From Pseudomonadota bacterium (GTDB taxonomy: Bacteria > Pseudomonadota > Alphaproteobacteria > SHVP01), in the NCBI GenBank assembly GCA_027622715.1, contig JAQBYN010000017.1:577-64576 (forward strand): DNA of 64,000 bases, given 5' to 3'. The notes under the pieces were generated by a model. That model worked only from the letters and a program-made list of their open reading frames with translations, did no database searches and was not told the origin of the DNA. This document shows positions 3,334-5,292 of the stretch, in pieces. The stretch's first letter is position 1. Each line of letters starts with the position of its first letter. Position numbers and translations under genes: made by a program.

Positions 3334-3392
3334 TTAGGTCCAGGTCTTGCTGGCTTAGGTCCAGGTCTTGCTGGCTTAGGTCCAGGTCTTGC
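3334..3392. repeat. Tandem repeat of a 21-bp unit TTAGGTCCAGGTCTTGCTGGC, about 2.8 copies
   Basis: Exact copies at 3334-3354 and 3355-3375, partial copy at 3376-3392. The unit contains the last codons and stop of the cupin gene. Confidence 0.95.
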
Positions 3393-3759
3393 GCGCGGGC
3401 GACTTGATCTCGATGAGAACACAGTCTTCCAGCGCTTCGCTCATGTGCCACACGCCAATGGGGTGGCGCCAGACATCGCCGGGTTCGCACATGAAGGTCT
3501 CGTCGCCGATGTGCATGCGCAGCTTGCCTTCCAACAATGTCGCCACCGATTCATGGTCGTCATGCTTTTGCCACGGGTCGGTAATGCCCTTCATTTTCCA
3601 GGCTTTGAAGACCAGCATGGCCTCGGTGACCATGAGGACTTTGAGGTACAGACCCTCGGGCTCCATGACGCCCTCGACGGATTCGATCTTCACCTTTTCC
3701 AGCGCGTCATCGCGCAAGAACAGGGCCTCGAAAGGCGTCATATGGCGGTCTTCGCTCAT
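3376..3759 (-). CDS. Cupin-domain protein
   Basis: HDDHES...LLEG and PGDVWRHP.GV.H cupin motifs. Clear paralog of 60641-61030. Confidence 0.85.
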   Translation of the reverse strand: MSEDRHMTPFEALFLRDDALEKVKIESVEGVMEPEGLYLKVLMVTEAMLVFKAWKMKGITDPWQKHDDHESVATLLEGKLRMHIGDETFMCEPGDVWRHPIGVWHMSEALEDCVLIEIKSPARKTWT

Positions 3760-3887
3760 GGCATCCCCTTGGCTGCTGGTTGGCGGCTAGGCGGCGGTGG
3801 CCCCAGCTTGGCCCCCTGCAAAGCCGGATCGTAGCTGGAATTCGCTCTTTATGAGCGGTTTTCTGGCGCGGATTTCGGACGGCTGGA

Positions 3888-3934
3888 CCACAAGATGTGT
3901 GGCATCCCGAATCGAAATGCACTACAGTTTGGGG
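3888..3934 (+). promoter_or_regulatory. Tandem NrdR-box-like motifs overlapping a putative sigma70 promoter
   Basis: CCACAAGATGTGTGG (3888) and GCACTACAGTTTGGGG (3919) resemble acaCwAtATaTwGtg and are 31 bp apart. TGGCAT-N17-TACAGT lies at 3900-3928. Confidence 0.4.
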
Positions 3935-3964
3935 GTCATTAACAAAACGTAAGGAGGTGATCCA

Positions 3965-4039
3965 TTGTCTAGCGGAATATGTGGCGACAAACGCCAGTTC
4001 GGTGAAGCGACGGTGGAACTACCTTCACGGTCGGCTTAG
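3965..4039 (+). CDS. Putative 24-aa micropeptide MSSGICGDKRQFGEATVELPSRSA (or coding part of a dual-function sRNA)
   Basis: The TTG start is 7 nt after GGAGG, which sits within AAGGAGGTGATCCA (3951-3964). Stop TAG is at 4037-4039, followed by hairpins and a terminator. Confidence 0.5.
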   Translation: MSSGICGDKRQFGEATVELPSRSA

Positions 4040-4081
4040 AGGACTGGACGAATCGTCCATGGGCGTTTTACGCCTAATCTC

Positions 4082-4117
4082 GCGGGGGCGGTCTTAACGG
4101 GCCGCCCTTTCGCGTTT
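4082..4117 (+). terminator. Intrinsic terminator, possibly bidirectional
   Basis: GGGCGGTC-TTAACG-GGCCGCCC stem-loop followed by TTT, between convergent transcripts. Confidence 0.7.
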
Positions 4118-4125
4118 CGGGGTCG

Positions 4126-5292
4126 CTAATAGCTTTTCGGCAGGCCGAGCACGCGTTCGGCGATGTAGCACAGGATCAGCTGTTGGCTGACCGGCGCCAG
4201 GCGCGCGATCATCACCTCGCGCAGTAAGCGCTCCACAACAAACTCTTTGGCATAGCCATAGCCGCCGTGGGTTAGCACCGCGCGCTCGCAGGCGCGGTAG
4301 GCGACCTCGGCCGCAAGGTACTTGGCGGCGTTGGCTTCGGCGCCGCACGCTTGGCCCGTGTCGTAAAGCTGCGCCGCTTTCAGCATCAGCAGGTCGGCTG
4401 CTTCGAGTTCGGCCCAACTTTCCGCTAGCGGGTGTTGGATCGCTTGGTTTTGTCCGATGGGGCGGCCGAACACGATGCGCTCACCGGCGTATTTCGCGGC
4501 GCGTTGAATCGCGTAGCGGCCAATGCCGATCGCTTCGGCGGCGACCAAAATGCGCTCCGGGTTGAGGCCGTGCAGGAGGTAGCGGAACCCAAGCCCTTCC
4601 TCGCCAATTCGATCTTCGAGCGGCACCGGTAAGTCATCGATGAAGACCTCATTTGAGTCGACGGCCTTGCGGCCCATCTTGTCGATCTCGCGCACCGTGA
4701 CGTAATCGCGGTCGAGTTTCGTGTAGAACAACGACAGGCCATCGGTCCCCTTGGCGCCATCGTTACGCGGGGTTGTGCGGACCAACAGCAAGATGTGATC
4801 GGCCTCTTGCGCGGTGGATGTCCACACCTTGCGGCCCTGCACGATGTAGGTGTCGCCGTCGCGCACCGCTTTGGTCTTAATGCTGCCGGTATCCAGGCCG
4901 GCGTCGGGTTCGGTCACCCCAAAACAGGCGCGGTGTTCGCCCTTGATGATCGGCGGCAGCATCCGGGCCCGCTGTTCTTCCGTACCGAAAACCACCACGG
5001 GATTGAGACCGAAAATATTGAGATGAACCGACGACGCCGCGCCGAATGCGCCGGGACCGCACGCCACTGTCTGCATCATCAGCGCCGCTTCGGTGATGCC
5101 GAGCCCGGCGCCGCCGTAAGCTTGCGGCATGGCGACACCGAGCCAGCCATCCTTGGCCATCGCGTCGGCAAACTCGTGAGGAAACCCGCCCTCGTGGTCG
5201 CGCGTCAACCAATAGGTCTCGTCGAAACGCGCGGCAATGCGACCGACCGCGTCCTGGATCGCGCGCTGGTCGTCGTTTAGCGAGAAATCCAT
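4126..5292 (-). CDS. Acyl-CoA dehydrogenase family protein
   Basis: Motifs FGVTEPDAGLD, GRKVWTS, GLNPER, R.VFGRPIGQNQAIQH and THGGYGY..E..VER. Confidence 0.95.
   Translation of the reverse strand: MDFSLNDDQRAIQDAVGRIAARFDETYWLTRDHEGGFPHEFADAMAKDGWLGVAMPQAYGGAGLGITEAALMMQTVACGPGAFGAASSVHLNIFGLNPVVVFGTEEQRARMLPPIIKGEHRACFGVTEPDAGLDTGSIKTKAVRDGDTYIVQGRKVWTSTAQEADHILLLVRTTPRNDGAKGTDGLSLFYTKLDRDYVTVREIDKMGRKAVDSNEVFIDDLPVPLEDRIGEEGLGFRYLLHGLNPERILVAAEAIGIGRYAIQRAAKYAGERIVFGRPIGQNQAIQHPLAESWAELEAADLLMLKAAQLYDTGQACGAEANAAKYLAAEVAYRACERAVLTHGGYGYAKEFVVERLLREVMIARLAPVSQQLILCYIAERVLGLPKSY

What the first reader, a model, noticed from the sequence alone, without database searches (positions are those of the whole stretch)
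3935..4117. Stand-alone small transcript with a 14-nt perfect complement to the 16S rRNA 3' end and a 24-aa ORF
Seen: AAGGAGGTGATCCA (3951-64) is the exact reverse complement of the conserved 16S tail UGGAUCACCUCCUU, far longer than a normal SD. An A-rich leader precedes it and it runs straight into a TTG start for MSSGICGDKRQFGEATVELPSRSA. Two small hairpins (TGGACG/CGTCCA, GGCGT/ACGCC) and a terminator follow. The unit is on the strand opposite to both neighbours and has its own promoter-like element. Inference: a micropeptide gene or dual-function RNA. A very strong SD with a weak start codon might hold 30S subunits or act as a decoy for anti-SD sRNAs.
Basis: partly seen in the sequence, partly recalled or inferred. 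Interest (0 to 1): 0.72.

Follow-up and report, generated by a model that had tools for sequence, protein, structure and literature searches.

The report
Known ribosome-binding small mRNA (rre/CC2171)
This is a real, stand-alone small RNA gene whose start region matches the end of the ribosome's 16S RNA unusually well, but it belongs to a family (rre genes, also filed as the CC2171 small RNA) that was described in 2016 and whose role is still unknown.

Summary
AAGGAGGTGATCCA lies at 3951-3964 (+). A TTG start, a 24-codon ORF, two small hairpins and a terminator follow, between two genes on the other strand. Even the inner 10-mer occurs once in the 3.15-Mb genome.

It is not new. Rfam's CC2171 sRNA (RF01867) aligns end to end, but at only 29 bits against a cut-off of 75. 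Hahn et al. (PMC5711450) described the family as rre small mRNAs (rreB, rreR). These carry 16-17 nt of complementarity to the 16S 3' end, bind 30S strongly, are translated weakly and are destabilised through their start codon. Their function is unknown.

Comparison of 140 relatives supports ribosome use of the ORF:
- Frame 0 ends after 14-36 codons in 136 of 140, against 51 and 43 in the other frames.
- The start was ATG, GTG or TTG in all 120 loci of the public-genome scan, and in 91 of 93 sites in a separate class-wide scan.
- Codon 2 is Ser in 120 of 121 distinct RNAs, using all four TCN codons.
- The peptide itself is barely constrained: dN/dS is 0.67-1.29.

This copy is a short variant, with 14 nt of complementarity and a TTG start. 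The same motif also occurs in Gemmatimonadota.

The parts
3899..3927 (+). Putative promoter: -35-like GTGGCA (3899-3904), a 17-nt spacer, and -10-like CTACAG (3922-3927). The predicted start of transcription is near 3934.
   Evidence: Inference only. Two blocks are conserved upstream of the element in all 8 same-genus sequences (TGGC/TTGCC ... CTA[CG]A[CG]). The E. coli-type scan found no promoter. The likeness to the rhizobial CTTGAC-N17-CTATAT consensus is recalled, not tested.
3934..3950 (+). Short A/C-rich 5' leader (…TAACAAAACGT), unpaired in the predicted fold.
   Evidence: A CAACAA-type leader precedes the SD in most relatives. Hahn et al. propose that the single-stranded 5' part of the complementarity region acts as the seed for 16S pairing (PMC5711450, section 19).
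3951..3964 (+). Extended Shine-Dalgarno AAGGAGGTGATCCA: 14 contiguous nt complementary to the 16S 3' tail UGGAUCACCUCCUU.
   Evidence: It is unique in the genome. GGAGGTGATCC is invariant across the relatives, except for an A-to-G variant that still allows G·U pairing with 16S. The 16S tail was read from three other alphaproteobacterial genomes.
3965..4039 (+). Short ORF: TTG start, 24 sense codons, TAG stop (4037-4039).
   Evidence: The start sits 12 nt after the first G of GGAGG in all relatives. The stop codon is aligned in all 9 family-level sequences as TAA, TAG or TGA. Frame-specific openness is shown.
3983..3995 (+). Hairpin inside the ORF: GGCG-acaaa-CGCC.
   Evidence: Consensus fold of 9 relatives, 4 pairs kept (GC in 9/9, 8/9 plus 1 GU, 9/9, 9/9).
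4004..4037 (+). Longer hairpin formed by the 3' half of the ORF, reaching to the first base of the stop codon. It is weaker in this copy, with 2 broken pairs.
   Evidence: 12 pairs, 2 of them with changes on both sides, and two mismatches in the window row. In the single-sequence MFE fold of the window this stretch pairs with the SD instead.
4045..4059 (+). Hairpin TGGACG-AAT-CGTCCA.
   Evidence: 5 pairs; 2 carry a change on both sides in L010.
4061..4075 (+). Hairpin GGGCG-TTTTA-CGCCT.
   Evidence: 5 pairs, GU/AU alternation at the closing pair.
4084..4117 (+). Intrinsic terminator: stem GGGGGCGGTC / GGGCCGCCC (4084-4107), then TTTCGCGTTT. It ends 9 nt from the stop of the convergent acyl-CoA dehydrogenase gene.
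   Evidence: The Rfam CC2171 model aligns its terminator helix here. The simple terminator scan did not flag it, because the T run is interrupted.

Best explanation
Window 3934-4117 (+) is an independently transcribed small mRNA of about 184 nt. It is of the rre type ('ribosome-regulated expression': rreB, rreR). This is the same family that Rfam holds, in its Caulobacter/Rhizobiales form, as the CC2171 sRNA.

The conserved core is a short unpaired A/C-rich leader, an extended Shine-Dalgarno sequence that pairs with the single-stranded 3' tail of 16S rRNA (14 nt here, 16-17 nt in most members), a start codon at fixed spacing (TTG here), and a Ser codon.

By homology with rreB, the RNA is captured tightly by 30S subunits. 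Translation of its 24-codon ORF is inefficient, because the over-long SD helix and the weak start slow the exit from initiation. Engagement at the start codon also couples the RNA's decay to the ribosome. What selection keeps is ribosome loading and transit over a frame of set length, not the peptide.

Shown here: the sequence anatomy, the family relationship, and the frame, start and stop conservation. Shown in print for rreB: 30S binding, weak translation and start-codon-dependent stability. Inferred for this copy: transcription, 30S binding and weak translation. The physiological role is unknown.
For: Identity:
- RF01867 aligns over model positions 1-159 to 3941-4108 (+), E = 3.6e-4. The consensus 5' end is cAAcaAucGAAAGGAGGUGAUCCAGUGUCU.
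- BLASTN finds the element in 7 of 7 other same-genus genomes and in 3 more distant ones.
- RF01867 hits in the class run without a break from 90 to 22 bits. Of the 28 places, 23 carry the motif.
- rreB-type loci (L069, L139: 14 codons, next to a tRNA gene as published) score 49.4 and 47.4 bits. An rreR-type locus (L045) scores 40.1 bits.

Ribosome use:
- The start was ATG, GTG or TTG in 120 of 120 loci where any base was allowed, and in 91 of 93 places in 401 class genomes.
- The first frame-0 stop falls at 14-36 codons in 136 of 140. The other frames give 51 and 43 of 140. Early stops (before codon 14) number 1, against 55 and 63.
- Codon 2 is Ser in 120 of 121 distinct RNAs (TCT 85, TCG 24, TCA 6, TCC 5).
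- In two clades (23 and 18 distinct sequences) the stop stays at codon 19 while switching among TAA, TAG and TGA.
- Non-ATG starts make up 70 of 121.

Independent unit:
- Flanking-gene orientations are ++39, +-35, --29, -+24.
- There is no family-wide neighbour among 100 flanking ORFs.

Published experiments on rreB: PMC5711450 (abstract and sections 13, 18 and 19 read).
Against: - No RNA data exist for this organism, so transcription, the 5' end and translation are all unshown here.
- The assembly has no 16S gene, so pairing with its own 16S tail is assumed from other genomes.
- The Rfam score (29 bits) is far below the gathering score (75).
- Complementarity is 14 contiguous nt, short of the 16-17 nt that Hahn et al. 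used to recognise rre genes. The TTG start cannot give the extra G-C pair that GTG gives.
- Hahn et al. describe the peptides as well conserved within clades. My counts argue against residue-level selection, but they are crude: the ORFs are very short, saturation is likely, and RNA structure constrains synonymous sites.
- The function remains unknown. Overexpression of rreB had no growth effect (PMC5711450, section 19).
Confidence: 0.72

Rival explanations
1. It is a true micropeptide gene. The 24-aa product is the functional molecule, and the unusual ribosome-binding site only tunes its dose.
For: The ORF, start and stop are conserved. The N-terminal half, MSSG(I/M)CGDKRQFG, is similar across the genus. 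Hahn et al. report clade-level conservation of RreB and RreR (PMC5711450, sections 13 and 18).
Against: Peptides of different clades share only MS plus one residue. Variability is equal at the three codon positions. dN/dS is 0.67-1.29 in the four clades that gave pairs. The conserved N-terminal codons coincide with RNA helices. Synthetic RreB and RreR were unstructured, and the construct expected to overproduce RreB had no effect on growth (PMC5711450). One of 10 peptides looked up is in a 15-billion-protein collection, and that one carries no informative name. The window's peptide matched no NCBIfam model.
Confidence: 0.12
2. It is a non-coding, base-pairing sRNA (the Rfam view of CC2171). 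The SD-like 5' end acts as a seed or sponge for CU-rich sRNAs or mRNAs, and the ORF is incidental.
For: Rfam classes CC2171 as an sRNA gene. The RNA is structured: z = -4.55. A long-range helix between codons 1-8 and the stretch before the terminator covaries. Own duplexes average -14.4 kcal/mol against -10.3 for swapped partners, own is better in 68 of 78, and own ranks in the best tenth in 35 of 78. Northern blots detect the RNA in Methylorubrum (bioRxiv 10.1101/2022.01.24.477521, passages read).
Against: Frame-specific lack of early stops, start-codon identity, and stop-codon switching are not expected of an incidental ORF. The invariant stretch equals the complement of the 16S tail to 16 nt in typical members. 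rreB co-sediments with 30S, and egfp fusions are translated (PMC5711450).
Confidence: 0.08
3. It is a 30S sponge. The RNA titrates free small subunits, or shields the 16S 3' tail, to lower global translation under some condition.
For: The SD duplex is exceptionally long and the start codons are weak. rreB resides mostly in the ribosome fraction (PMC5711450).
Against: Overexpression of ribosome-binding rreB did not change growth, and ribosomes far outnumber the RNA (PMC5711450, section 19). There is one copy per genome in most of the 86 class genomes that hold the motif.
Confidence: 0.08

Closest known systems
rreB, the small mRNA of Bradyrhizobiaceae (Hahn et al., RNA Biol 2017;14:1353; PMC5711450)
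   Same: Stand-alone transcript of about 165-185 nt with its own promoter and terminator. Extended SD complementary to the 16S 3' tail, non-ATG start at the same spacing, very short ORF, and structured 3' part. Both align end to end to RF01867 below its cut-off.
   Different: rreB has 17 nt of complementarity including the G of GTG, and 14 codons. This copy has 14 nt, a TTG start and 24 codons, and its peptide is unrelated. The genomic context differs: rreB lies beside tRNA-Gly, this one beside an acyl-CoA dehydrogenase.
rreR of the Rhodobacter/Roseobacter clade (same paper)
   Same: Same 5' core and architecture. The 18 distinct 18-codon sequences of my sample (MSR.. type; starts GTG) fit the published description.
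   Different: 18 codons, GTG start, 16-17 nt of complementarity, unrelated peptide.
Rfam RF01867, CC2171 sRNA of Caulobacter
   Same: The consensus 5' end carries the same leader, extended SD, start and UCU. The overall order of helices and the terminator align. The RNA was validated by Northern blot in Methylorubrum (bioRxiv 10.1101/2022.01.24.477521).
   Different: It is filed as a non-coding sRNA. The window scores 29 bits against a gathering score of 75. The central helices differ.
Extended SD motifs of Staphylococcus aureus mRNAs (PMC13009471; search listing and start of abstract only)
   Same: SD-anti-SD pairing longer than the canonical core.
   Different: There it is a genome-wide property of ordinary genes that promotes initiation. 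Here it is a single locus in a genome where even the 10-mer is unique. In rreB it impedes translation.
rnTrpL/peTrpL of Sinorhizobium (PMC6614838, PMC7298713; search listings only)
   Same: A small alphaproteobacterial RNA that ends at a terminator and contains a translated mini-ORF.
   Different: It is leaderless, precedes trpE(G) as an attenuator, and has Trp codons. The rre element has no fixed downstream gene.

Membership tests
rre small mRNAs (rreB/rreR, Hahn et al.) | A region of 16-17 nt perfectly complementary to the 16S 3' end, running up to or into the start codon | tested here: not met
   There are 14 contiguous nt (3951-3964). U3950 breaks the 5' extension, and T of TTG cannot pair where G of GTG does. 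The own 16S is not assembled, so the comparison uses three other alphaproteobacterial 16S tails.
rre small mRNAs (rreB/rreR, Hahn et al.) | A short ORF starting directly after the complementarity region | tested here: met
   TTG lies 12 nt after the first G of GGAGG, followed by 24 codons. The spacing is the same in all 140 relatives examined.
rre small mRNAs (rreB/rreR, Hahn et al.) | A stand-alone small transcript with its own promoter and terminator, in a context not conserved between clades | tested here: inconclusive
   A terminator is predicted and conserved. Neighbours are on the other strand. Flank orientation is random across the family. The promoter is only inferred, and there is no RNA evidence.
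rre small mRNAs (rreB/rreR, Hahn et al.) | Sequence continuity with accepted members | tested here: met
   There is a chain of BLASTN and covariance-model hits from the window through L010-L012 to rreB-type (L069, L139) and rreR-type (L045) loci. All align full-length to one model.
rre small mRNAs (rreB/rreR, Hahn et al.) | Strong 30S binding, weak translation, start-codon-dependent decay | not testable with these tools
   Known only for B. japonicum rreB (PMC5711450).
Rfam RF01867 (CC2171) | Score at or above the gathering threshold of 75 bits | tested here: not met
   29 bits, E = 3.6e-4, no hit in the gathering-mode scan. Only 5 of 151 class genomes exceed the cut-off, although 23 places carry the motif.
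Rfam RF01867 (CC2171) | Full-length alignment with the conserved 5' motif and the terminal helix | tested here: met
   Model positions 1-159 of 159 align. The posterior is high over the first 30 positions and over the terminator.

The most novel reading that the evidence does not exclude
rre/CC2171 RNAs are not peptide genes. They are ribosome-engaging RNAs in which selection keeps only 30S capture, a deliberately weak start and a fixed-length transit path, with the peptide as a by-product. The device is also older or more mobile than reported. The same leader-SD-start-UCU core occurs in single copy in 23 of 61 genomes of the class of a Gemmatimonadales MAG. None of those 23 has an ATG start: 12 are TTG, 10 GTG and 1 CTG. 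This suggests a conserved role in sensing or checking the free 16S 3' tail or initiation capacity.
Probability: 0.3. Interest if true: 0.6.

Novelty: new member of a known kind. Interest (0 to 1): 0.3.

Why it matters
For this window, little: the locus can be annotated as an rre-type small mRNA (CC2171-like) of unknown role.

For the family, the comparison adds several points that I did not find in the papers I could search (CC2171/RF01867; rreB/rreR; no mention of Rfam, Landt, Sphingomonad, TTG or Gemmatimon in PMC5711450):
- rre genes and Rfam CC2171 are one family.
- Rfam's threshold misses most members.
- The frame and length are selected, but the residues are not.
- The element also occurs in Sphingomonadales and outside Alphaproteobacteria.

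In genomes where few genes use an SD (24.6% in Caulobacter; PMC4117421), one locus with the longest possible SD is a natural probe of how the 16S tail is used.

Tried and rejected
1. SD masked by an anti-SD mimic inside the ORF. The window's MFE fold pairs GGAGGUG plus the start region with GACGGUGGA..UACCUUC, and several relatives showed UGGAUC/CCUCC-like stretches. Across 121 distinct RNAs, predicted pairing of the SD core, its extension and the start was no higher than in dinucleotide shuffles of the body. Means were 0.76 against 0.75, and real exceeded shuffled in 60, 50 and 60 of 121. The genus consensus fold pairs CCUUC within an ORF-internal hairpin instead. Rejected as a family feature.

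2. Leader peptide or attenuator of a downstream gene. Orientation of the flanks is random and there is no common neighbour among 100 flanking ORFs. Only local synteny appears. Rejected.

3. Expression check. No RNA holder was listed among 24 public runs; all rows were DNA metagenomes.

4. Peptide searches. There was no NCBIfam hit for the 24-aa peptide or for the overlapping 66-aa ORF 3897-4097. Nine of 10 peptides are absent from the protein collection.

5. Own anti-SD. There is no 16S in the assembly. In two same-genus genomes the only match to the 16S-tail pattern was the element itself.

6. Literature limits. The Landt 2008 paper is not held. Whether the S. meliloti small-proteome tables include a homologue could not be seen.

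8. RF01867 places L035, L036, L037, L039 and L040 were dropped as coding-region or terminator-only matches. L064, L071, L075 and L128 of the pattern scan look like ordinary genes or chance.

Full report
**1. What is there**

One search shows, on the plus strand, an A/C-rich stretch (TAACAAAACGT) followed by AAGGAGGTGATCCA at 3951-3964 and TTG at 3965. One search lists the ORF 3965-4039, which encodes 24 aa (MSSGICGDKRQFGEATVELPSRSA) and ends in TAG.

Downstream lie the hairpins TGGACG/CGTCCA (4045-4059) and GGGCG/CGCCT (4061-4075). A G+C-rich stem at 4084-4107 follows, then TTTCGCGTTT. The 178-nt stretch 3940-4117 folds at -75.4 kcal/mol, z = -4.55 against 200 shuffles.

Both neighbours are on the minus strand: a cupin-domain ORF at 3376-3759 and an acyl-CoA dehydrogenase at 4126-5292.

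The 14-mer occurs once in the 3.15-Mb assembly, and so does its inner 10-mer. In the window, even with two mismatches allowed, it is the only site.

Two points are weaker:
- The E. coli-type promoter scan finds nothing. The promoter is inferred only from two blocks that all eight genus sequences share upstream.
- The assembly has no 16S gene. I read the 16S tail from three other alphaproteobacterial genomes, which show CUGGAUCACCUCCUUUCU.

**2. What it is**

A permissive Rfam scan aligns RF01867 (the CC2171 sRNA of Caulobacter) over its whole length to 3941-4108. The score is 29 bits, E = 3.6e-4, far below the gathering score of 75. The gathering-mode scan of the window finds nothing. The model's consensus 5' end is cAAcaAucGAAAGGAGGUGAUCCAGUGUCU. 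This is the same leader, extended SD, start codon and UCU.

BLASTN finds the element in 7 of 7 other genomes of the genus and in three more distant genomes.

RF01867 hits 26 of 151 genomes sampled from the class, and 5 of them exceed the cut-off. Scores run without a break from 90 to 22 bits. Of the 28 places, 23 carry the motif and 5 do not look like the family.

They are mostly Rhodobacterales, Sphingomonadales, Rhizobiales, Acetobacteraceae and Rhodospirillales.

In 401 class genomes, the 17-nt pattern occurs in 86, mostly once per genome. The reversed control occurs in about 10.

**3. It is published**

[quoted passage not shown] I read the abstract and sections 13, 18 and 19, and ran a term search. 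The paper reports:
- rreB of Bradyrhizobiaceae is a 165-nt mRNA with 17 nt of complementarity to the 16S 3' end, a GTG start and 14 codons.
- It is seen on Northern blots, lies in the ribosome pellet and co-sediments with 30S.
- It becomes more stable when the start codon is replaced by a stop.
- rreR of the Rhodobacter/Roseobacter clade has 18 codons.
- The peptides are unstructured, overexpression has no growth effect, and the function 'remains elusive'.

The paper does not mention Rfam, CC2171, Landt, Sphingomonadales, TTG or Gemmatimonadota. No later paper with 'rreB' and 'Shine-Dalgarno' is in the searchable library.

My rreB-type loci (L069 and L139: 14 codons, beside a tRNA gene as published) score 49.4 and 47.4 bits on RF01867. 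An rreR-type locus scores 40.1 and a Sphingomonas locus 41.4. The rre genes and CC2171 are therefore one family, most of it below Rfam's cut-off.

CC2171 has also been seen by Northern blot in Methylorubrum (bioRxiv 10.1101/2022.01.24.477521, passages read) and predicted in Mesorhizobium (PMC5596092, passage read).

**4. Coding or not**

Several signals point to ribosome use of the ORF:
- Where the pattern allowed any base, the start was ATG, GTG or TTG in 120 of 120 loci and in 91 of 93 places. The two CTG cases are a second hit in one genome and a hit in a genome that also has a control hit.
- In 140 motif-bearing loci, the first frame-0 stop falls at 14-36 codons in 136. The other two frames give 51 and 43. 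Stops before codon 14 number 1, against 55 and 63.
- Codon 2 is Ser in 120 of 121 distinct RNAs, with all four TCN codons in use.
- In 23 Sphingomonadales-type and 18 rreR-type distinct sequences, the stop stays at codon 19 while switching among TAA, TAG and TGA.
- In the genus alignment, net indels within the ORF are multiples of three and the stop is aligned in all nine sequences.

The residues themselves are barely constrained:
- Variability is equal at the three codon positions.
- Crude NG86 dN/dS is 0.67-1.29 in four clades. This estimate is weak because the ORFs are short and RNA structure constrains silent sites.
- Peptides of different clades share little beyond MS.
- Non-ATG starts make up 70 of 121, in line with selection for weak initiation.

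**5. RNA structure**

The genus consensus fold keeps a hairpin inside the ORF (3983-3995), a longer hairpin formed by the ORF's 3' half (4004-4037), the two small hairpins and the terminator. Six of the 44 predicted pairs show a change on both sides with the pair kept.

Across 78 diverse members, the first eight codons pair with the stretch just before the terminator better than with swapped partners. Own duplexes average -14.4 kcal/mol against -10.3. Own is better in 68 of 78 and ranks in the best tenth in 35 of 78. This supports the long-range helix of the Rfam model. In the window itself this helix is weak (-7.5 kcal/mol).

My idea that the SD is masked by an anti-SD mimic inside the ORF did not survive its control or the consensus fold.

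**6. How it most likely works**

By homology with rreB, the unpaired leader and the 5' part of the SD seed pairing with the 16S tail. The long helix holds the 30S subunit. The weak TTG start and the over-long helix keep translation low. Engagement at the start codon couples decay of the RNA to the ribosome.

For this copy all of that is inference. Two differences from typical members might loosen the grip. Complementarity is 14 contiguous nt, because U3950 breaks the 5' extension that gives typical members 16 nt. TTG also cannot add the pair that GTG adds.

The unit is independent of its neighbours. Flank orientation is random across the family, and there is no common neighbour.

**7. Verdict**

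The locus is real, correctly described, and correctly suspected of holding 30S subunits. It is a new member of a known family with unknown function. It is not a new kind of element.

The points that may be new are the rre = CC2171 equation, the evidence that frame and length are kept but residues are not, the Sphingomonadales clade, and the occurrence in Gemmatimonadota (23 of 61 genomes, no ATG start among them).

Noticed in passing
L041, L051, L063 (genome contigs); genomes G414-G477: The same leader-SD-start-UCU core, followed by a 20-codon ORF, occurs in MAGs labelled Gemmatimonadales/Gemmatimonadota. In the class of G414, 23 of 61 genomes carry the 17-nt pattern once each, against 1 reversed-control hit. 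Starts are TTG 12, GTG 10, CTG 1 and ATG 0. RF01867 does not detect L041 at E <= 0.1. The rre paper does not mention this.
   Followed up: partly
L024, L050, L052, L055, L058, L061 and others (23 distinct sequences): A Sphingomonadales-type clade has an ATG start and an 18-codon ORF beginning MSHGSA. The stop is fixed at codon 19. A class-IV aminotransferase gene often lies downstream on the same strand (L024, L050, L052, L106). Sphingomonadales are not listed in the rre paper.
   Followed up: partly
L018, L022; G029, G056, G103, G167, G211, G213, G230, G268, G358, G366, G405: A recurrent variant, GGAGGTGGTCC (A to G), turns an A-U pair with the 16S tail into G·U rather than a mismatch. One of these loci (L018) still scores 71.7 bits on RF01867.
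   Followed up: partly
L065 (Pseudohongiella MAG), genome G417: A MAG labelled as a gammaproteobacterium carries the motif with ATG and a 25-codon ORF (MSSD...). There is no RF01867 hit and no clear terminator by my finder. It may be a member or a chance strong ribosome-binding site.
   Followed up: no
window 3842-3858 (+): A terminator-like hairpin, TCGCTCTTTATGAGCGG followed by TTTTCTGGCG, lies between the cupin gene's start and the element's putative promoter. It was the only site flagged by the scan in 3600-4400.
   Followed up: no
window 4108-4126: The element's terminator ends 9 nt from the stop codon of the convergent acyl-CoA dehydrogenase gene (4126-5292, minus strand). It could therefore serve both transcripts. 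The pairing of element and acyl-CoA dehydrogenase is kept in same-genus loci.
   Followed up: partly
window 3897-4097 (+): A 66-aa GTG ORF in another frame spans the whole element. It has no NCBIfam match and is most likely spurious.
   Followed up: partly
genome G000: The assembly (86 contigs, 100% complete by marker genes) has no detectable 16S rRNA gene. Public runs that hold the stretch are all aquatic, estuary or seawater DNA metagenomes.
   Followed up: yes
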